From assembly GCF_009914755.1 (NCBI RefSeq), contig NC_060933.1: a DNA stretch of 64,000 bases. One strand, written 5' to 3'. Numbering within the stretch: the stretch's first letter is position 1; every line of letters starts with the position of its first letter. The notes beneath the pieces are model-generated. The model saw only the letters and a program-made list of their open reading frames with translations, was not told the origin of the DNA and made no database searches. Shown here piece by piece: positions 20,780 to 64,000 of the stretch. The position numbers were made by a program, and so were the translations under genes. The DNA comes from the human T2T-CHM13v2.0 reference genome, Homo sapiens.

Positions 20780-21488
20780 AGGGAGGAGAAGAACGAGGGA
20801 AGGAAATGGAGGAGGGGAGAGAGTAAGATCTATATTTAGCAAAAGGGAGAGACACTTACCAAGGGTGTGTGAGTGAGCTTGCTGGCAAGGGTTGTGTGTG
20901 CGTGAGTGTGCTGGGAAGGGGGTGTGTGCGCCAGGAACGTGTGAGGAGGGCTGGTGCCCTATGGGAGGTTGCAGGCAGGAAGCAGCTGGAGAGGAGGAGG
21001 AGCAGCAGCAGGAGCAGGAGCTGCCCTGCTTTCTGCCTCAGTCTCAAAGCCCAGAATCGATTGAGTTAGAATTCCACATCCAGTTGAAGTTTGGCTGCTG
21101 TTGCCTTCAGCAGGCTGATCTCAGAATCCCCCTTGCCAGAGAGGTGTGGACCAGGTTAGATTTCTACGTTTGCAGCCAGTGAGACTCCTGCCAAGCCCTT
21201 CACTGAGGGGTTTTTTTGCAGGGCATTGTTTCTGTCATCAACTTTGTGCCGTGGAGCCAGCCAGCTGGGTGCAACTGAGAATATTAGCTCCTTGGGTCTG
21301 TTTGTCGGTTGGGCAAGCAGTGGTGCTTTGGCTCAGAAAGTTCGTCCTGTGGCTTCTCTGTCAAACCAAGGAGTGCTCCTGGATGGATTTCCTCTTAAAG
21401 ACAGCATTTGCCTTCTAAAACTTGAGAATTCATGGTTTTAATTTTTTTTTTTAATTTCCTTAACCCTTATTTTGGTTGCAGCAGCAAG
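20780..21488 (+). promoter_or_regulatory. UNC13B: Candidate alternative promoter and non-coding first exon of the brain-type UNC13B transcript
   Basis: Repeat-free GGA/GT-rich stretch with a TATA-like tatattta (~20831), ending at a consensus donor AAG|GTAAGT (21488/21489); lies upstream of the brain-type ATG exon. The start coordinate is a guess. Confidence 0.5.
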
Positions 21489-28359: not shown

Positions 28360-30670
28360 GCAGTACTTCTTTTTTAAAGACAAATTTGAAAGGCCACTTG
28401 CCAGCTGCAGCCCTTGTAAAGCCAGGAACATTGTTCATGGCTAATACCAAGAGCAAATCAGGGATACCCAATCCCTACATGGTTGGGGAGGAAAAAAAAA
28501 AAAAAAAAAAGGAGTATCTTTGGAAATTCAGATTTTGTCCTTGTGGGAAGAGAGAAGGAAGAATTTGGCATCCTCTAGACTTTGGAGCGTGGTCTACCTA
28601 GGCAGCTGGGCACCAAGCCCAAGACCCAGAAATTCTGGTTGTGCAGGTAGTGCATCCTCGCAGGCTAGACTGAGTTGGCCAGATTAGGGGCATGGCTGTT
28701 CCTGGCCCCATGAGACCTTGAGGTGAAGCAGTAATGCCTCACAGGATGGATAGGGTTCTTAGATGAAGAATTCCTCAATGAATTAGAGTTGTTAGATAAG
28801 CTGGAAAGAAAAGGAGAGATGTGAAATGGGAATACATGCAGTTTCTGTCTCTTGGTTCTTGGCCTAGTTATTTCTAGTAAAAAGAATCAGCTTCATCTTT
28901 ATCCCAAGTCCTCTGACTCGTCCTTCTGGTTCCTCCTAGTCTGGGGAAGCACAATGCTTTTAAATTCCAGGCCCACAGACTAGATGTAGGTGGTGGCCTT
29001 TCCTGAAAATGGGTTGCCATGAGAGCAGTCTGCCTGTGTTCTTTAAGGCATTTTCCCACTTTTAGGATTAACTTGAGTACTGGGAAAATAAAAGGAGGCA
29101 GAGTTTAGAAGATTTAGAAATCTCCATCAAATCTAGAAAATGGGGAAAGCATCCCTGGTCAAAGAACATGAAGAGTAGCATGTCTCCCACCAATCCATCT
29201 TACCCCTCCCAGGAGACCTAGCAGGACTGGAATATTAGTTGTCCCATGTGCCTCCTAGATCTCTGCTTTCCTCCTTGTACTTTCCACTCTACTGCTTCCG
29301 TACACTCTCCACATTCTCAGTAAAAAGGGAATGTATTCTCACTCCACATGAGGTAATCATCGTCTCTGCCTCTGTAATGCAGTCACCAATAGCTTAGGGT
29401 GTAGGGACTAGACTGGTGGCAAGTCTGTCTTTACCTTATTGGAGAAGAGTAAAGCACCCTGGAGCCCTCTGTGAGGTAACCCTCCCCCACATGTCCCATG
29501 TGATATTCTCTCTGGGCCAGGCAGAGGATTAGAGCAACCCTTTGTTATTAATACTTGAGCAGTGGACAGTGTGCTGGACAATCACTTATTGTGGTGCTCT
29601 GAAAGATCCTCTGTGGGCCAGGAAAGCCAAACCCAGATATTGACTAGCTGCAGCAAGCCCTTAGAGAGTATTAAGTGGAGCTCAGGAGCACCAAGCTAAG
29701 CCTAAACCTCCTTCATCCCCAGTTGTGAGTTCATGATACCTGTCTCTTTGGCTACCTGCCTCTCTACCTGCCTCTCTCATGCTAAATGCCACCTACGTCT
29801 GGACAGTGTGTGCGTACTGTGCCACTTTATTCTAGAATTAGGTAAAGAAATATTTTTCCTGCTAAGTTTAAAATACGTAAACCATTGTCCTTTCTCCAAG
29901 TGAACGGTTGCCATCACTCAACAAAGGGAAAATACTTTGTGCTATAAGCACAGGCAGGGGTAAACTTTTGAGTAAGTGGAGTCTTCACCAGAACAACAAA
30001 CTGGAAAAGAAAGAAAGAAAGAAACATTCCATGTCTTGTCTTTCACTGTGTATGTGATTTGAGCCTTGGTGGTTAAGCATTTGTTTGTTTATTTCTGAGC
30101 CAGACTCCTAGTACTGAATTTTGTGAAAGTTCAAATAAGGACTTACTCATTGACCTTACTTCATCTACCTCCCAGCAGCTTGTCTCAATATCGTTGACTT
30201 TGGGTACTTGCCCAGAACACAAGGACTTTATTTTAATTTTACATTGATACTCTAAGGGGAAGCTAATGAGAAACAACTGACTGCCCATAGCCTTTAAGAC
30301 TGGGGTTGGGAGGCAGGTCAGGGTTGATTCCTATAATCTTAGGAGATAATGTTTTTATTCCTGCTTGACAACTTGATTCAAACTAAAATCATCCTGCTAC
30401 TTTCTGACCTGAGTGCACTATTTTCCTTTTTCACTAGCTACAGGATAAATCAAGCCAGGATCCAGGGGCATGTGCGAGGTTTGGAGGCCACACATGGGGC
30501 CATTCCAGGCAGCACTGTGGGCTAAGCCCAAAGCATCAGCCAGCAATAATTGCTAGAAACAAACTGAAAAGAGCAGGACAGGCTGTTGCCTTCCAAGGTA
30601 ATCTCTATTAAGCATCCTGACCAGAAATAAGAGGAAGAAGCAGAGAACCCCTCAAACCCTGAGGGAGAAA

Positions 30671-32954
30671 ATGAAGCGATTGTTGCAAGAGTCAGAGGAA
30701 GAAATCATGGTTACCTTGGGACCCTCCTCCAGGCTTTCCCCAGATAAGGCTAAGGCAGAGACCATGTGTGGCACCAAGAGCAAATCCTCTGGCCCTGCTG
30801 GATCCTTACCAGAGGACAACTCCCTGCCCCCTTGCTGTGGGTCAGCAGCCTTAGCCATTGGTGGAGATAGAGATGGGGACCTGGCCCAGCTTTGCAGCTT
30901 TGGGCAGCAGAACAACAGCCAGCTTCCTCTGGGCTCCACTGCCTATGTTTCAGGGTCTGGTTCTCAGGATCCCTCATCTGTCAGCATTACCACAAGCTGT
31001 CAGGAGCCCTCAGAGAGGAACCAAACCAAGACCCTTTTGTCCAGAGGCCATGGCCAAGGCTGTAGCCGTGAACAGCGGGAACCTTTGGGGGATGTAGTAG
31101 AATACATCATCAGAGAGCTGCAAGGCATCAGCCGTCTTCAGACTGAGATTGCTGAGCTGCAGCAGCACTTGAGCCAAGTCCAGGGTTCCGTGGATGAAGT
31201 CTCTAGCTGTGTAGACTCAGTACTGAGTGAAATAGAAGGCTTACAGGTGAGCACCTGTTCCCTGGCCAAGGTGTGTGAGGGTGAAAAGGCCCAGGAACCC
31301 CACGTGGACAGACCCAGTGAGGAAGCCATTCTGTATTTGTACGGACTTCCTGAACAAGATGGAGAAAATACTATGGAACTGGTGGAAAGCTTTCTAGCCA
31401 AGCACCTTTGTGTTAATGGCATGCAGTGCAACAGGTACATTAAAAAGGCTTACAGGGCAGGCACATCCCCTTCCCCTAGGCCCACTGTTGTGAAGCTTGC
31501 CCATCTAGAGCATAGAGACTTCATCTTGCAGAAATCCATCCTCTTGCAGAATGTGGGAGTCCGAATTGCCACCAGAGAAGAACCAAGCTGCCCACAGGGT
31601 AATAAGAATCCCCAGAAGGAGTCTATATCATTTTTTCAACAACAACATCAGGATTATAGTCAGACTTCTTTAAACCAGGATGAACCAGTTCTTCAGATGG
31701 AAACAGGGGACAGGGGACCCATAACAGGAACATATCAGATGAAGGCTCAGGATCAACAGAGAGAGCACCAGGCCCCTGAGCAGCAAGGCCCTTGCTTTCT
31801 ACTCAAGAACAATTTATCAAAGGAAAGTGATGTGCCCAAGCTAGGGGATGAAATAAAAGGAGCATCAAGAACATCTCAAGTTATCAGTGGCAGCTGTGAT
31901 GAACTGTCAGAGAAAAAGGCTTCTCTGTCTACCCCCCATCAGTTTGAGGAACCTGCCCTAGTATTAATCTCAAAAGAGGAGGCTTCTGGGAAGTCCCAGT
32001 TTTTCAAACAGTACAGCCAAAAACATGAAGCATGTAAAGTAGGAAAACCAGAAAATGACTGCCACGATAAAAGTGAGGCCAGCAGCTGCCTGTCATTGTC
32101 TGGGTTACTGAAGACAGAGAGAATAAACGCAGAGGACAAGCTCCTGGGCTGCGAAGCTGGGCTCGATATTCTGAGCTCAAAGGAACTAGAGGACCTTTTG
32201 GCAGACAAGTCCAGAAGGCTTGCAGCTCTGAGCTGTGACAGCATGATGGAGGAAATTATCATAGGGCCTGAGACTTTCAGTGACATGGTTCATATTGACC
32301 TGAATGAAGAGGAGGAATGTGCTGCTCACGTCCTCAAGGATGTCTTTGACAAGTCCTCTTGTGTTCTGGGTGGCTCTCAGGAGGATGAGGATGTGGAAAT
32401 CAAGTTTTATACAAGTAAACTGGGCCGAGCAATTCACCACTTTCGTTCTGCTCTGCAGGGTGTGTTTCAGAAGCTGGAGAACAGTGGGTCCATCAGTCCT
32501 GAGGACCTGGAAAGCAATGAGAGTGGTTCCCAGTCAGAGAACAGTGATCGACTTCTTGGGACAGTGAGTTCAGGGGGTGCCCAGGATTGCTCACTGGAGA
32601 GCCCTGGGAGTCAGGGGAGTGAAAGCTTGCTCAGTGTGGTCTCTGGTGGAGTTGGCGTCTCCACACAGGGAGAGCAAACCCCTCAGGATCCAAGCACCTT
32701 CTCTCTTGCTTCTAATAACTCCTTGCCAAGTGTTGCTCTGGCTCCATGTCTGGGAAGTGAGACTTGTTCCAGGCCTGGATCTCCCAAGCAGGGCAGACTG
32801 AGCCTAGAGCAAGTGTGTACAGAGACCGTTTACCTCAACAAGTGCATCAACAATTTTAAGAATGTTCTAAGAGAGAAAAGACTAAGGCAGAAAAAACTTC
32901 TGCATGAGCTAGTACAGAAGGCAAACCGTCTCTCAGTAGAAGACATACACTCAG
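30671..32954 (+). CDS. UNC13B: UNC13B brain-type (bMunc13-2) N-terminal coding exon: 761 codons + 1 nt; coiled coil, ORF1p-like domain, calmodulin-binding helices
   Basis: 776-aa ORF MKRLLQESEEEIM...LSVEDIHS matches the recalled bMunc13-2 N-terminus. Donor TCAG|GTATTC (phase 1) joins in frame through the 23-nt exon to the shared exons. Candidate acceptor AGs end at 30437 and 30443. Confidence 0.9.
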
Positions 32955-42179: not shown

Positions 42180-43688
42180 TCAGGCTAATGGAACAGAATG
42201 AGTAAATAAAAATTTGGGGTTTTGAGTATGTGACGTCTTTGTGAAACAAGACAATTAGATTGTAGGAATGTATATGGGGTCAAGAAAGAGGGCAGAGGAG
42301 AGGAATTTGGGGATTTGGGCCAGATCATGGAGAGCCGTGACGGCTCTGTCAATGGATTGATTTGATTTTAATCTTTAGGCATTATGGGGAAACCTGTGGA
42401 GAACAGAAGGACACAATCAACTTTGACATGGTTGTAGAATATATTTAAGATAGTGAAGGGGGAGAGGTACATTTCCAGTTTGAGTCATGGGGTCAGTTAA
42501 AGGATTGTTTGCCTAATTTTCTTACTCAAAAGGAACACATTATCCTGGGGGGGTTGAGATGTAGATATGGAAGAGATATGTCCCCATTCCAGGGAGTGTC
42601 TTTCTCATCTTTCCCACCTTCCTGGAGCTGCACTGTTTTGGAGGATTCCTTGTCACCTAGTCCAGGACAGGTGACCCATTAAGTAAGCAGAAATAGCTTG
42701 AAAAATTGGGAACCTGTGAATTCGATTCTTGAATTCTCCCCTCTACTTGTGATGTGACATCAATGGGCCTTTAAAAGAGAAAAGAAAATGGAGGGGCACT
42801 AATGGACCAAGGTGGGTGGACTTTCCTTACAGAAGGAAGCCTGTGGGCCTATCCATGTATGGCCTAGAAGGCAATGTAGTCTCTGATGAATAGGAAAGGA
42901 GTAATCTCTGGGCTTTATTTTTATCCTGTTATGGCTTGATCGGGCCCTTCTGGAAGTGTCAGTTTCCTTTAGAGTATTGTCCTGGGTTTGATAAATAATC
43001 AGATTTGGGATTGCAGTCATGGTTTTATCATCTAGATCACTGTGATTTCTATTAGGAAAGCAGCCAGTCGATGCCCCCAGGCCTGTAGCCATTCAGCATC
43101 CTGGTCCTGGACTTAACTCCAGGCCCTACCCTGGTCCAACTTAATTTCAGGTCCGAGAAACGGGCCAGAGCTCATTGAGTGAATGCATGGCCAAGCCTGC
43201 ATTGCAAAATGGAAAAGGCTCAGTCACCAGGGCCTTTGGAGTTTGAGGACTTATACCAGATCTAGAATAAGCTCACGTGGCTTCTGAGGAAGGAAATCAC
43301 TCTGTGCTCAGCCAGCTTAGATAGTCTGTTGGAGTGGTCATTGGTAACAAATCTGGTCTTGCAACCTTGGCAGCCCTGACCCTTGATGCAGGCCACTTTG
43401 GAAATGGGAAAAGGATGACTGGAACCCCTGGGTAGATTTTGTCCCTTGATTTAGTTTGGAACATCTCCAGGGATGTTCCAAACTAAAAATCCTGGGCCAG
43501 CAAATACAGGCAGGAAGGATTCTGGAAGCCAGTCAGCTGGGCTCTATGAACTGCCTAGTTGTCCCGAGGACCTCTCCCTCTCTTCCATGTCCCTTGGAGT
43601 TTAGCTGGCATTTTCTTTGGGTTCCCTACTTATAGGACTGACTCTACTAACCTTTCTGCCCTTTTTTCTGCTCTTTCTCTCCTTGCAG

Positions 43689-43711
43689 AAGAAAAGCGAG
43701 GAGCCCTTCAG
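43689..43711 (+). CDS. UNC13B: UNC13B 23-nt microexon, (E)EKRGALQ; phase 1 to phase 0
   Basis: TACTAAC branch point at 43645-43651, long pyrimidine tract, ttgcAG|aagaaaagcgaggagcccttcag|GTtgtg; restores the frame between the brain-type exon and the IPDD exon. Confidence 0.85.
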
Positions 43712-43775
43712 GTTGTGCCTATGACCCTTTGGGTCGTCCTTTTTTGTCTATTTCCCTCCCCTCCTTCCCAAGCAC

Positions 43776-43810
43776 TGTATGTGTGTGTGTATGTGTGTGT
43801 GTGTGTGTAC
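43776..43810. repeat. (TG)n tract
   Basis: tgtatgtgtgtgtgtatgtgtgtgtgtgtgtgtac. Confidence 0.92.
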
Positions 43811-46090
43811 ATGCACATGTGCGTGCATGATCTGTGCCTCTGAGCTTTGGCTCATGCAGTCTATTTTTCTGAAAAGCAGTTTGTGTGCATGCTCCTTGCT
43901 TGTGTGTGCTCCTGCAGATATCCCTGGAGCACACTGCGAGAATGTGTGTGCACCAGCATGGGTGTGCATTCAATGTAGCATGTGTGTGCTTATACTCAGT
44001 TTGACTCCCCCAGACACTGATTACCCTCCTTTTCTCCTACTCAGCTCAGTGTGTGTCCATTTTCTACCTGTTGCTGCAAACTCTGGCATATGCTGTAAAA
44101 CCTTGGCTGAGCCCAGCACGCATGTGTACTTTGTATTTGAGAGCAGGCTTTGCTGCAGGCATTTCCTGCCTCTTGCCTGAGGCCCTAAGTGTGAAGGTAC
44201 TTGTGCTCTGAACAGGCTTCCTGACCTCTCTGTTGAGCACAGGCTTCTGTAGCCCTGTTACGTGGTTTCCCCAAACCATGTGAATGCATAGTATACTAAT
44301 GCCCTGTGCTTGCAAGCACTGGCTCTTGAAGACCATGAGGGTTTGCTTTGCCTGTGATTTGGGCCATAGTAAACACTGTGAATCCTCCTCAGATGAGTTT
44401 CTGCAGATCACTGAATACTCTGAAGCTTATGTTCTGAAGCCATAAGCCTAGGATCCATGCTCACCATGTGTTTCCTTCAGACACAAGTTGTGTGTACTAT
44501 GTGTGCAGGCTTTTGCAGACATGTTGTTATCCCTTCTGAGCACAGGAAATGTGCATGATCTGAGCCAGGTTCTCAGACTTTTTGTGACTTTGTTTCCTTA
44601 AGCCCAGTGGTTTCTGGCAAATATCTCACTCTGGATAGGAAATAAGAACCTGCTGAGTACGGTGGCTATTTCCAGAGGGAAAATAAGTTCTGGTTGGTAA
44701 GATCTGGGGATTTAGGGATTGGCTCCCCAACACTCAACCCTTACCCCTTCCATAAGCAACCTTAGAAGACTTGCAGCTTTTCTGTTATTTCCCACCTACT
44801 GTTGTTTCTTCCCACCTACTGTTGTTTCTTCTATACTATCCCCATTGTCTTTTGCTTCAGCCACTTCTGGCTGCCTTTTGGACCTGGCCCTCCCATTACC
44901 AATATCATCCTACCTATAGAAAGGATAGGAGGCAGATGGGGTGGAATGGGGGCTCTGGTCCGTAGGGAGATAGGCTTGATTAAAACATAGACAACCTAAG
45001 AGGAGTCTTAAATCCAAAATTCATGTGAGCCTATTGCTGACCCAGGTAATTCTCCCTCACTTTTCCATCACCATTAGCTCTGTCCTATCTGTCCCTATTC
45101 TCCTCTGTATTGCCTCATTGTTATCCATAACTTCTCCCCACTTTAGCTCTCCAAAACATCACTCACTGTTCAAAGCTAAGCACCTTAATTCTGCCTCCCT
45201 TCTGGAGCTCATTTGCTCCAGGATAGTTAGGAGGCAGGGAAGTTGTTGGGAGTGGAAGAAAACAAGGAGGGGCAGGAAGCCCCAGACCTGTTAGCCTGAA
45301 AAAAGCATGTGCTATTGGACCTCTGGAGCACTCTGGCAGCTTTGGACCTTTCTGCATGCTGCTTGAAGGATTTGCTTTTGTTTATTTTGTTTTCTTTTGG
45401 TACAGAAACCTTTAAAAGGTGATTTTTGAACTGTTCCCTTCCTTGAATTATTTGGTGTCTCAAGTTTCGACTTCTCATTCTAGGGCCTATAGAATTCACT
45501 AGAATGATAATCCAAGTGTCTAATCTACCCTGGGTTCTCTTGTTATGTAGAATTTATTAAATAGAGAGAATATACTTAGTGTCAGTGAGTCAGAGGTTCA
45601 AGGCACCCAAACTAAATCCAACCACAAAATGAGATAGGAATCCAGAGAGACCAGGTCTGACTCTGGGACATTAAGGGAGTTTAGGAATATAGCTGGAAGA
45701 AGACTGGACTCTATATGAAGGTGTCCTTTTGCTTTAGTGAGGCCTGGAAGCCTAAGTAGGCCCTTCTCCTGTGCTTGGTTTACTGCTGTCTACACTAATG
45801 GCTCATATAAGAGTGATATGAGTTCTGCCATTCCAGTAGACTTCAGCCCTGCAAACTCAGTGAGCTTTGCCCTATCTCCTATTCACCAAGGAGACAGGTA
45901 CCACTCATTTCAGCAGCCTGCTTGTTGCCCTGACTGATCAGGACATTGGTTTAGATGTCAGACAGGCTGTCACCACATGGTGAATGTGACTTACACTGCT
46001 CTGGGCTTGTACTCTACTGCTCGCTGCTCAGATTACAGGCAATCTCCCATCTTTCCCAGGATCTAACTTGTTTCCTATCTCTTTTTAAAG

Positions 46091-46137
46091 ATTCCAGATG
46101 ATGGTGACCCCTCTCTGCCTCAGTGGCTCCCGGAAGG
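46091..46137 (+). CDS. UNC13B: UNC13B first shared exon, IPDDGDPSLPQWLPE(G), 47 nt
   Basis: tttttaaAG|att...gaagg|GTAAGT; peptide matches recalled Munc13-2. Confidence 0.93.
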
Positions 46138-49461: not shown

Positions 49462-49540
49462 GCCAGCCGGAGGGCTCTATGGCATTGACAGCATGCCAGA
49501 TTTACGCAGAAAGAAGCCACTGCCACTTGTCAGTGATCTG
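49462..49540 (+). CDS. UNC13B: UNC13B exon, (G)[26 protein letters not shown], 79 nt
   Basis: ctcctcAG|g...gatctg|GTGAGT; conserved Munc13 [11 protein letters not shown] motif. Confidence 0.95.
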
Positions 49541-51077: not shown

Positions 51078-51083
51078 GCTATG
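51078..51083 (+). CDS. UNC13B: UNC13B 6-nt neural microexon GCTATG (Ala-Met)
   Basis: ttcttttctcTGCtgtcctctacgcAG|GCTATG|GTGAGT; phase 0-0; gives VSDL-AM-SLVQSRK, as recalled for Munc13-1. Confidence 0.85.
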
Positions 51084-54270: not shown

Positions 54271-54345
54271 TCACTGGTCCAGTCTCGGAAGGCAGGAATC
54301 ACTTCTGCAATGGCTACACGCACTTCTCTTAAGGACGAAGAGCTG
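54271..54345 (+). CDS. UNC13B: UNC13B exon, [25 protein letters not shown], 75 nt
   Basis: ccctgacAG|tca...gagctg|GTAAGT. Confidence 0.95.
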
Positions 54346-54842
54346 GTAAGTGTCCCAAGTGCTTTCGTAAGTCCACTGGCCTCAGGACTGGTGATCATCT
54401 CTGTAGCCATGCTATTAATAATTGGGAATTCTGGGAATTCAAGAGTGCTGGACACACATTGCTGATGAAAAAGATAGATAGCATCAGGTGTTAGTTTTCC
54501 ACACTGGGAAAGACTCTAAGCAAGTCTAGATCAGAGAGTAAGCCCAAGTCTCATGTTGAAGGGTGTGACCACTGAACTCAAGGTTTTATGATGGACCTAG
54601 TACCTTCTGTTTTCTTAGAAAGCGTGAATGCTGGAACAAGGCTCGGATCCAGCATCAGGTCCAACCTGTGTTGGACAACCAGAAGCACACTATATTGTGG
54701 GCCTCATTCTGCTATGCTGGGCTCTGGGCTGGGCCAGGATAGAGCATCTTCTTCATTGCCAGAGGAGACACGAAATCAAGGTCCTGATTGTCCCACAGGG
54801 TCTCAGTTCTGGTATCTCCCTGCAGAACCCAAAAGTCATGGG

Positions 54843-55408
<566 letters not shown>

Positions 55409-60699: not shown

Positions 60700-60863
60700 A
60701 ATCTTTTCCATTACCTCACAGACATTCAGGGCAGTGGAGGAGTCCGCATCCCTGAAGCTCGAGGAGACGATGCCTGGAAGGTGTACTTTGATGAGACAGC
60801 CCAAGAAATTGTGGATGAATTTGCCATGCGTTATGGCATTGAGTCCATATATCAGGCCATGAC
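60700..60863 (+). CDS. UNC13B: UNC13B exon, 164 nt
   Basis: [11 protein letters not shown]...[14 protein letters not shown](T); ctgcAG and GTGAGT boundaries. Confidence 0.96.
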
Positions 60864-61465: not shown

Positions 61466-61663
<198 letters not shown>

Positions 61664-63389: not shown

Positions 63390-63458
63390 AAAGAGAGATT
63401 TGTAAAACTGCTGGACCAGCTACACAACTCACTGAGGATCGACCTCTCTACATACAGG
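63390..63458 (+). CDS. UNC13B: UNC13B exon, [23 protein letters not shown], 69 nt
   Basis: ccctcAG|aaa...tacagg|GTGAGT; the gene continues beyond the window. Confidence 0.95.
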
Positions 63459-64000
63459 GTGAGTGAAGACACGGCTGTGGGCAGGATAATAGATATCAAG
63501 CACGGTCCCAGAGAGACTGTAGGCCAATCTTGGCTATAAAGATTGAGGCCAGGGAAAACTGGTCTGTGTCATCACATCCACCCAAATGGCCAATGCTACT
63601 GACACCTGTGGTTCTTTTAACTCCAGGGACCATGTGGTGTATAAATAGCAGCAGGTATGGTTAGTTTTTATAGACAGTTGTCTTTCCAACCTCATTCTTA
63701 ACACTCTACTAAACTCTCTGGTGACATTCTCATTAGGGAGTTTCCTGAGGATAATCTCTTCCAGGAGTATCCTTTTAAAAAATTAGATACCTAATTACAT
63801 TTCTTTTTTGCATTTTTCCATACTCTCCTCGTTTTCCAGCGGAGGTGTGAGAATCTGGCTAGGGGACAGAGAGTAGCTTGGCTTTTGCAAGTAATCTGTA
63901 TCAGAGAGCATGTCCATTCCTAGTATAAAGGGAGGAAATAGGTATAGTAGGAGGATGGTTACTGGGACGGGACAGGATAAGGAAATGGGCAGTTTCTTAG

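What the first reader, a model, noticed from the sequence alone, without database searches (positions are those of the whole stretch)
43645..43720. 23-nt microexon acts as a promoter-dependent reading-frame switch (essential vs poison)
Seen: the brain-type exon ends in phase 1 and the shared exon at 46091 starts in phase 0. Skipping the 23-nt exon gives G|AT TCC AGA TGA, a stop at 46099-46101. If instead it is included after a phase-0 upstream exon, it shifts the frame and the first stop is a TGA formed across the 54345/55172 junction, upstream of many further junctions (NMD substrate). The ubiquitous isoform's upstream exon (...RLQLQE) is outside the window; its phase 0 is recalled. One splicing decision would therefore make one isoform productive and silence the other. 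From memory, a frameshifting UNC13B exon is reported to be included on TDP-43 depletion; this is probably that exon, which would make it the normal bMunc13-2 adaptor rather than an aberrant exon.
Basis: partly seen in the sequence, partly recalled or inferred. Interest (0 to 1): 0.75.

Follow-up and report, generated by a model that had tools for sequence, protein, structure and literature searches.

The report
UNC13B 23-base frame-adaptor and poison exon
A conserved 23-base exon of the human synaptic gene UNC13B keeps the brain form of the protein in frame but breaks the frame of the ubiquitous form, and it is the same exon already published as the UNC13B "frameshift exon" that appears when TDP-43 is lost.

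Summary
The 23-nt exon (43689-43711) has an acceptor and a donor. The brain-type ORF (ATG 30671) leaves exon 30438-32954 in phase 1. With the exon it stays open through all 11 shared exons; without it a TGA follows at 46099-46101. After phase-0 exon 10 (fetched from the genome, ends RLQLQE) inclusion gives a TGA across 54345/55172.

By coordinates it is the "UNC13B FSE" of Brown et al. 2022 (hg38 chr9:35364545-35364567; both junction spacings match the window exactly). That paper shows inclusion on TDP-43 knockdown (PSI 0.011 to 0.329) and NMD sensitivity. It also notes that a brain-expressed "shorter isoform" shares the exon.

New here:
- The explicit frame logic.
- An 8-residue linker of fixed length in 100 of 120 brain-type orthologues, from mammals to birds and turtles.
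- The weakest donor of the 15 in the window, the strongest 3' region, and the window's only long (TG)n tract 65 nt downstream.
- A stop position that differs from the published text.

Cis coupling between promoter and splicing is not shown. The feature is largely known; interest is modest.

The parts
30671..32954 (+). Coding part of the brain-specific (bMunc13-2-type) large exon 30438-32954. The ATG is at 30671 and the exon ends in phase 1 at a weak donor CAG|GTATTC.
   Evidence: the longest ORF starts at 30671 (2284 nt = 761 codons + 1); the donor matches 6 of 9 consensus positions; the 761-aa translation finds UNC13B proteins with this N-terminus from primates to birds.
43645..43651 (+). Branch-point consensus TACTAAC. 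The branch A is at 43650, 39 nt before the exon.
   Evidence: one of only 2 TACTAAC on the + strand of the 64-kb window. That this motif serves as the branch point is inferred.
43652..43688 (+). Polypyrimidine tract with three TGC motifs, followed by the AG acceptor.
   Evidence: 32 of 37 pyrimidines at -4..-40 (second highest of 14 acceptors in the window). It has 3 TGC in the last 40 nt, the most of the 14 acceptors.
43689..43711 (+). The 23-nt exon. It is the frame adaptor for brain-type transcripts (encodes 7 2/3 codons, peptide EEKRGALQ with the carried-over G). It is a +2 frameshifting poison exon after exon 10. It equals the UNC13B FSE of Brown et al. 2022.
   Evidence: frames. (hg38 coordinates and junctions; PSI 0.011 to 0.329 on TDP-43 knockdown). 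(conserved linker).
43712..43720 (+). Weak 5' splice site, CAG|GTTGTG.
   Evidence: 5 of 9 matches to MAG|GURAGU, the lowest of the 15 annotated donors in the window.
43776..43809 (+). (TG)n tract of about 16.5 copies starting at intron position +65. It is the likely TDP-43 binding silencer. Further TG-rich patches run to about 44060.
   Evidence: TRF: 43776-43808, period 2, 16.5 copies; 12 of the 14 matches to (TG)6 with at most 1 mismatch in the window lie here (shuffles: mean 0.2); highest TGTG/GTGT density of the whole window. Brown et al. report TDP-43 iCLIP peaks near the FSE; I saw the text and legends only, so base-level overlap is inferred.
46091..46137 (+). Shared exon 11 (47 nt, starts in phase 0, acceptor ...tttttaaag|). 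It holds the TGA at 46099-46101, which is read only when a brain-type transcript skips the 23-nt exon.
   Evidence: Exon numbering follows from Brown's exon 19-20 junction primer, whose letters I read by eye against the printed ends of exons 60700-60863 and 61501-61651; no search was run for it.
54344..55172 (+). The premature TGA of exon 10 + 23-nt exon transcripts. It is formed by 54344-54345 and 55172 across the exon 13/14 junction.
   Evidence: The next junction is 219 nt downstream, so NMD is expected. Brown et al. found these transcripts to rise under cycloheximide and UPF1 knockdown.

Best explanation
The 23-nt exon is a conserved, annotated coding microexon of UNC13B with two opposite consequences. 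Which one applies depends only on the phase of the exon spliced in front of it.

Brain-type transcripts. These start at the internal promoter(s): first exons at 21040 or 30586, ATG at 30671. They leave the 2.5-kb brain-specific exon in phase 1. The 23 nt bring them to phase 0, so common exon 11 is read correctly. Skipping gives a stop 9 nt into exon 11, and NMD is expected.

Ubiquitous transcripts. These come from the upstream promoter and reach exon 11 from exon 10 in phase 0. There the same exon is a +2 frameshift with a stop at the exon 13/14 junction, and the mRNA is degraded by NMD.

Recognition and regulation. The exon is hard to define on its own: it is 23 nt long and has the weakest donor in the window. 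This is offset by a very strong branch site and pyrimidine tract that carries UGC motifs. TDP-43 represses it, most likely through the (UG)16 tract 65 nt downstream. Loss of TDP-43 therefore poisons ubMunc13-2 mRNA.

What is shown and what is inferred:
- Shown here: the frames, the stops, the splice signals, the UG tract, identity with the published FSE, and conservation of the linker.
- Shown in print (Brown et al. 2022): inclusion on TDP-43 knockdown, TDP-43 crosslinks nearby, NMD sensitivity, and presence of the exon in a brain-expressed isoform.
- Inferred: that the UG tract is the silencer; that brain-type transcripts include the exon efficiently; that NMD removes the two out-of-frame combinations, so that steady-state RNA looks perfectly coupled; and that neuronal microexon activators help inclusion.
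For: - Frames and stops.
- Exon 10 sequence and phase.
- Identity with the FSE: coordinates and both junctions; primers.
- Splice-signal ranking and UG density.
- Conservation: of the 120 listed proteins with the brain-type N-terminus (208 hits, best 120 listed), 95 have an 8-residue linker of the form E-G/E-x4-x-Q exactly between the large-exon end and the exon-11 peptide. Four chicken-type entries have it with one extra residue after it, and platypus P0098 also has it. The linker varies in sequence: EGKRGALQ in most placentals, EGRQQTLQ in marsupials, EGSRGELQ in turtles and crocodile, EGGRGELQ in birds. It does not vary in length.
- Two promoters giving ub and b variants spliced onto a common part: (passages of PMC5379939).
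Against: - TDP-43 is present in neurons that make bMunc13-2, so repression by TDP-43 alone cannot explain why brain-type transcripts include the exon. This is unexplained.
- 20 of the 120 listed proteins lack the linker. Nine predicted isoforms (horse, camel, rhinoceros) join ...DRLLGT directly to exon 11 through an internal phase-0 donor. Human has ACA|GTGAGT there, at 32563|32564. So the microexon is not the only conceivable in-frame route.
- The orthologues are mostly automatic gene models and are not independent of each other.
- Exon boundaries in other species were not seen; only peptide length was.
- That Brown's 'UNC13B-210' is the bMunc13-2 transcript is my inference; the paper does not name it so in the passages I saw.
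- Brown et al. place the stop 'at the beginning of exon 11', which my calculation does not reproduce for exon 10 + 23 nt.
- A 2025 preprint (10.1101/2025.06.28.661837, passages) calls the UNC13B cryptic exon 'in-frame and somewhat leaky'. I could not see its coordinates.
Confidence: 0.85

Rival explanations
1. True cis coupling. The promoter or the upstream exon itself dictates the splicing choice, through elongation rate, co-transcriptional loading or splice-site pairing. Brain-promoter transcripts would then include the exon and upstream-promoter transcripts skip it within the same nucleus, independently of NMD.
For: The exon is at PSI 0.011 after exon 10 in control iPSC neurons, yet it is needed in every productive brain-type mRNA. 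bMunc13-2 is the dominant Munc13-2 variant in mouse hippocampus (passage). The two upstream donors differ: CAG|GTATTC sits 10.7 kb away, while GAG|GTAGGA of exon 10 sits 50.5 kb away.
Against: No data seen link first exon to inclusion on single molecules. The control neurons of Brown et al. hardly express the brain-type isoform, so the comparison is between cell types, not between promoters in one cell. NMD of both out-of-frame combinations would produce the same steady-state picture.
Confidence: 0.2
2. The exon is an aberrant or cryptic exon without normal function. It appears only as mis-splicing when TDP-43 is lost.
For: It is described under 'mis-splicing' and is listed among TDP-43 cryptic-exon genes in reviews. 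It has a UG repeat next to it, like cryptic exons (for the general rule).
Against: It is annotated in RefSeq (hub table) and in Ensembl. It is needed for the only open frame of the brain-type transcript. Its 8-residue product is kept in length from mammals to birds and turtles in 100 of 120 listed proteins. It is found in control brains.
Confidence: 0.03
3. Human brain-type transcripts mainly restore frame by another route, the internal phase-0 donor at 32563|32564 spliced straight to exon 11. The 23-nt exon would then be dispensable, and would be poison for that sub-isoform too.
For: The human sequence has ACA|GTGAGT there, matching 7 of 9 positions, which is stronger than the annotated donor at 32954. 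Nine predicted isoforms of horse, camel and rhinoceros use the equivalent join.
Against: No exon ending at 32563 is among the human RefSeq exons listed by the hub. In 100 of the 120 listed proteins, including the two primate clusters P0001 and P0002, the full exon plus the linker is used.
Confidence: 0.05

Closest known systems
UNC13B frameshift exon (FSE) of Brown et al. 2022, Nature 603:131 (PMC8891020)
   Same: It is the same exon. The hg38 coordinates chr9:35364545-35364567 and both junctions map onto 43689-43711 with identical spacings. It is included on TDP-43 knockdown, is NMD-sensitive, has TDP-43 crosslinks nearby, and is shared with a brain-expressed isoform.
   Different: In the passages I saw, the paper treats it as mis-splicing. 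It does not name the sharing isoform as bMunc13-2 and does not state that the exon is that isoform's obligatory frame adaptor.

It places the stop at the beginning of exon 11. I find the stop at the exon 13/14 junction. The paper's table lists the exon as length 22, mod 3 = 1 (end minus start). A 22-nt shift would indeed give the exon-11 stop. That this is the origin of the discrepancy is my guess.
TDP-43-repressed cryptic exons (UNC13A CE, STMN2)
   Same: There is a UG repeat close to the 3' end of the exon. The exon is repressed by TDP-43, and inclusion leads to a premature stop and NMD.
   Different: Cryptic exons are unannotated, non-conserved and absent from normal tissue. This exon is annotated, its product is conserved across amniotes, and it is constitutive in one normal isoform.
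Poison cassette exons / alternative splicing coupled to NMD
   Same: Inclusion gives a premature stop far upstream of the last junction. The transcripts rise when NMD is blocked.
   Different: Classical poison exons are non-coding in every isoform. This one is coding and essential in a second isoform of the same gene.
Neuronal microexons (3-27 nt; nSR100/SRRM4 programme), including the 6-nt Unc13b microexon of Quesnel-Vallieres et al. 2015 (PMC4387716)
   Same: It is 23 nt long, sits in a synaptic MUN-domain gene, has a strong pyrimidine tract with UGC motifs before the acceptor, and is found in brain transcripts.
   Different: It is not a multiple of three. Dependence on SRRM4 was not tested and was not found in the papers I read. 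The published Unc13b microexon is the 6-nt one (window 51078-51083), not this exon.
Recursive-splicing RS-exons (Sibley et al. 2015, recalled; competition model seen in passages of PMC8605326)
   Same: It works as a binary switch in a long intron of a neuronal gene, where the identity of the upstream exon decides whether a frame-breaking exon stays in the mRNA.
   Different: An RS-exon needs a 5' splice site reconstituted at its first bases (AG|GT). This exon starts AAGAAA, so neither exon 10 nor the brain exon can rebuild a donor. It is not a member.

Membership tests
UNC13B FSE (Brown et al. 2022) | The exon lies at hg38 chr9:35364545-35364567, between exons 10 and 11, with junctions 35313989-35364545 and 35364567-35366947. 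| tested here: met
   the spacings 2402 and 2380 nt equal 46091-43689 and 46091-43711, and the length is 23 nt. Exon 10 is 91 nt in both. The primers map to exon 10 and to 49473-49492.
UNC13B FSE (Brown et al. 2022) | The exon is included on TDP-43 depletion and is NMD-sensitive. | not testable with these tools
   Taken from the paper: PSI 0.011 to 0.329, and rises under cycloheximide and UPF1 knockdown. The sequence agrees: a UG tract and a stop 219 nt before the next junction.
Poison exon (AS-NMD) | Inclusion creates a stop more than about 50 nt upstream of a downstream exon junction in the main coding transcript. | tested here: met
   TGA at 54344/54345/55172, with the next junction 219 nt on and 8 exon ends still inside the window.
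Poison exon (AS-NMD) | The exon has no productive coding role in any isoform. | tested here: not met
   the exon is required for the only open frame of the brain-type transcript; its peptide is conserved in length.
TDP-43 cryptic exon | Unannotated, non-conserved intronic sequence that is absent from normal tissue. | tested here: not met
   It is annotated (hub table). The linker is conserved in 100 of 120 listed orthologues. It is present in control brains.
TDP-43 cryptic exon | A UG-repeat TDP-43 site lies next to the exon. | tested here: met
   a (TG)16.5 tract at +65..+98 of the downstream intron, the only long TG run in the 64 kb.
Neuronal microexon (SRRM4 programme) | Length is 3-27 nt. 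| tested here: met
   The exon is 23 nt.
Neuronal microexon (SRRM4 programme) | UGC-containing enhancer between the pyrimidine tract and the acceptor (the motif is recalled), and dependence on SRRM4/SRRM3. | tested here: inconclusive
   There are three TGC within 40 nt of the acceptor, the most of the 14 acceptors in the window. Dependence on SRRM4 cannot be tested here and was not found in print.
Recursive-splicing RS-exon | A 5' splice site (GT...) lies directly at the first bases of the exon, so that a donor is rebuilt after the first splice. | tested here: not met
   The exon begins AAGAAA. The joins GAG|AAGAAA and CAG|AAGAAA hold no GT.

The most novel reading that the evidence does not exclude
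The exon, with its UG tract, is a physiological selector between the two Munc13-2 proteins rather than only a disease lesion. Under this reading, the inclusion level set by TDP-43 and by neuronal activators decides, in any cell where both promoters fire, which promoter's output survives NMD. TDP-43 loss in mature neurons would then not simply lower UNC13B. It would shift it from the RIM-binding ubMunc13-2 towards the ELKS-bound bMunc13-2. A splice-switching oligonucleotide designed to 'rescue' UNC13B by blocking the exon would abolish bMunc13-2. A stronger version adds true cis coupling of promoter and splice choice.
Probability: 0.2. Interest if true: 0.6.

Novelty: already known. Interest (0 to 1): 0.35.

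Why it matters
UNC13B is listed among the genes mis-spliced in TDP-43 disease (ALS/FTD). The reading has four practical consequences.
- Junction 43711-46091 cannot be used as a marker of TDP-43 loss in brain tissue, because normal bMunc13-2 mRNA carries it. Only the exon 10-43689 junction is specific.
- The same exon can be scored as 'frameshifting' or 'in-frame' depending on the reference transcript. This may explain conflicting statements in print.
- Blocking the exon therapeutically would remove bMunc13-2.
- The predicted stop of the poisoned ubiquitous mRNA lies at the exon 13/14 junction, not in exon 11.

None of this changes the known biology fundamentally.

Tried and rejected
- Recursive-splicing exon: rejected. 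There is no GT at the exon start.
- Other in-frame combinations of annotated exons: I only checked that the 6-nt exon 51078-51083 leaves the premature stop of the poisoned ubiquitous transcript in place (which tried only 23 nt + 6 nt). From the exon lengths, by arithmetic and with no call run: 23 + 6 and 23 + 47 are not multiples of three, and skipping exon 11 gives phases that do not fit.
- RNA structure as an explanation: the fold of 43640-43830 is more stable than shuffles (z -4.5). The signal is the UG tract pairing with the CA/UG-rich stretch after it. I give it no weight.
- Conservation of the UG tract and of exon boundaries in other vertebrates: not possible. No vertebrate genome other than the window's own is held; only protein models could be compared.
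- Search for a paper that names the FSE as the bMunc13-2 adaptor: none was found in eight full-text searches, nor in the passages read. Subscription papers and bioRxiv supplements were not searchable.
- Sibley et al. 2015 could not be opened and is cited from recall.
- The author correction to Brown et al. concerns a cell-line name only.
- Transcript identifiers in the reviewer file did not tell which Ensembl transcript is which.

Full report
**What is in the sequence**

The exon at 43689-43711 is 23 nt long.
- Upstream lie a TACTAAC branch-point consensus (43645-51) and a tract with 32 of 37 pyrimidines that carries three TGC motifs.
- The acceptor is ...ttgcag|.
- The donor, CAG|GTTGTG, matches only 5 of 9 consensus positions. 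That is the lowest of the 15 annotated donors in the window. The acceptor region is among the two best of 14.
- From intron position +65 runs a (TG)16.5 tract, 43776-43808.
- Twelve of the 14 matches to (TG)6 with at most one mismatch in the whole window lie in this tract; shuffled sequence gives 0.2 on average.
- The 100-nt windows just after the exon have the highest TGTG/GTGT density of the 64 kb.

**Frames**

The shared exons 46091...63458 are open in one frame only: 0 stops against 18 and 34 in the other two. Exon 11 therefore starts in phase 0.

Brain-type transcript:
- The ORF begins at ATG 30671, and exon 30438-32954 ends in phase 1.
- With the 23 nt the ORF runs open to the end of the window.
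- Without them it stops at TGA 46099-46101.

Ubiquitous transcript:
- I fetched exon 10 from the same genome using the published forward primer.
- It is 91 nt, lies at window -6932..-6842, and ends ...RLQLQE in phase 0.
- Joined directly to exon 11, the frame stays open.
- With the 23-nt exon in between, the first stop is the TGA formed by 54344-54345 and 55172. It lies 219 nt before the next junction.

**Identity with the published exon**

Brown et al. [quoted passage not shown]
- Their supplementary files give exon 10 as chr9:35313899-35313989 and the FSE as 35364545-35364567.
- The junctions are 35313989-35364545 and 35364567-35366947.
- PSI rises from 0.011 to 0.329 on TDP-43 knockdown.
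- The distances 2402 and 2380 nt are exactly those between 43689 or 43711 and 46091.
- Their reverse primer lies at 49473-49492.
- The letters of their exon 19-20 junction primer, read by eye against the exon ends printed, fit the 60863/61501 junction. This fixes 46091 as exon 11.

It is the same exon.

The paper also reports TDP-43 iCLIP peaks near it and increased FSE transcripts under cycloheximide and UPF1 knockdown. Extended Data Fig. 6 and the reviewer file state that a 'shorter isoform UNC13B-210', expressed in human nervous tissue but hardly in the cell models, shares the exon and its downstream junction.

**Conservation**

The 761-aa translation of the brain exon found 208 longer proteins, of which the best 120 were listed. 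They are UNC13B models from primates to marsupials, platypus, turtles, crocodile and birds.

- 95 of the 120 have an 8-residue linker of the form E-G/E-xxxx-x-Q, placed exactly between the end of the large exon and the exon-11 peptide.
- Four chicken-type entries have the linker with one extra residue after it.
- Platypus P0098 has it as well.
- The sequence drifts (EGKRGALQ, EGRQQTLQ, EGSRGELQ, EGGRGELQ; human EEKRGALQ), but the length does not. This is what a 23-nt adaptor requires.

The other 20 proteins fall into these groups:
- Nine predicted isoforms of horse, camel and rhinoceros join ...DRLLGT straight to exon 11.
- One Tupaia model has another internal join.
- Six models read through intron-like sequence instead of the linker: P0058, P0065, P0087, P0088, P0100 and P0101.
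- Four models lack the exon-11 peptide.

These are mostly automatic models and are not independent of each other. Exon boundaries outside human were not seen.

**Mechanism**

The consequence of the exon is fixed by the phase of the exon in front of it. It is essential after the brain exon and poisonous after exon 10. NMD should remove both wrong combinations.

The exon's anatomy fits a regulated microexon: tiny size, the weakest donor, very strong 3' signals, UGC motifs and a flanking UG repeat. It would be held down by TDP-43 and possibly pushed up by neuronal activators. The TDP-43 effect and the NMD effect are published. That the UG tract is the binding site, and that SRRM4-type factors act here, are inferences.

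One thing remains unexplained. Neurons that make bMunc13-2 contain TDP-43, so something must override repression in them or on those transcripts. I saw no data that distinguish three possibilities:
- cis coupling to the promoter (my odds about 0.2);
- differences in trans-acting factors between cell types;
- a plain NMD filter.

**Comparison with what is known, and discrepancies**

The exon is not a cryptic exon in the strict sense, because it is annotated, conserved and present in controls. It is not a classical poison exon, because it is coding in one isoform. It is not a recursive-splice exon, because it has no GT at its start.

There are two discrepancies with print.
[quoted passage not shown] For exon 10 + 23 nt I find no stop in exons 11-13; the stop is at the exon 13/14 junction. 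The exon-11 TGA is what a brain-type transcript meets when it skips the exon. Their table lists the exon as length 22, mod 3 = 1, and a 22-nt shift would give the exon-11 stop. That this is the source of the statement is my guess. NMD is expected either way.
- A 2025 preprint calls the UNC13B cryptic exon 'in-frame and somewhat leaky'. If it means this exon, the dual frame status would explain the contradiction. Its coordinates were not visible to me.

**Novelty**

In print already are the exon, its TDP-43-dependent inclusion, its NMD effect, and its sharing with a brain isoform. The two-promoter origin of ubMunc13-2 and bMunc13-2 is also long known.

In eight full-text searches I found no explicit statement that the FSE is the obligatory frame adaptor of bMunc13-2. 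I also found nothing on the amniote-wide conservation of its length, or on the corrected stop position. I rate the feature as already known, with a useful clarification. Interest is 0.35.

Noticed in passing
window 51078-51083: A 6-nt microexon (GCTATG) with good splice sites and a TGC in its pyrimidine tract. It very likely corresponds to the nSR100-dependent 6-nt Unc13b microexon that rescues neurite growth in mouse (PMC4387716, passages; PMC12287369). It leaves the premature stop of the poisoned transcript in place.
   Followed up: partly
window 32558-32569 (donor after 32563): Inside the brain-specific exon there is a consensus-like phase-0 donor, ACA|GTGAGT (7 of 9 matches, stronger than the annotated donor at 32954). 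Nine predicted isoforms of horse, camel and rhinoceros use the equivalent site and join directly to exon 11, dropping the last 130 residues of the exon and the linker. It is not among the human RefSeq exons in the hub's table.
   Followed up: partly
proteins P0058, P0065, P0087, P0088, P0100, P0101: These public gene models of other species replace the linker by translated intron-like sequence in front of exon 11 (for example ...NFFLFLK). This looks like the usual annotation error when a microexon is missed and the predictor repairs the frame another way.
   Followed up: no
window 63459-64000 (runs on beyond the window): The intron after exon 63390-63458 is the UNC13B retained intron (exons 21-22) that Brown et al. 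report as increased on TDP-43 knockdown. Their source exon chr9:35384246-35384314 maps to 63390-63458 with the same offset as the FSE.
   Followed up: partly
window 43776-43830: The UG tract can pair with the CA/UG-rich stretch directly after it. The fold of 43640-43830 gives -53.3 kcal/mol, z -4.5 against shuffles. Whether this competes with TDP-43 binding is unknown.
   Followed up: no
window 20861-20904: The second most TG-rich spot of the window (17 TGTG/GTGT per 100 nt; TGTGTGTGCGTG at 20893) lies just upstream of the brain-type first exon at 21040.
   Followed up: no
window 43692: The human linker reads EEKRGALQ, where the two other primate clusters and most placentals have EGKRGALQ. This is a G-to-A difference in the second codon that lengthens the purine run at the exon start. 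Pig, peccary and a desman model also have EE.
   Followed up: no
proteins P0114, P0115, P0117, P0120: Chicken-type isoforms carry one extra residue (V) between the linker and the exon-11 peptide, beside isoforms without it. This suggests a 3-nt alternative acceptor at exon 11 in birds.
   Followed up: no
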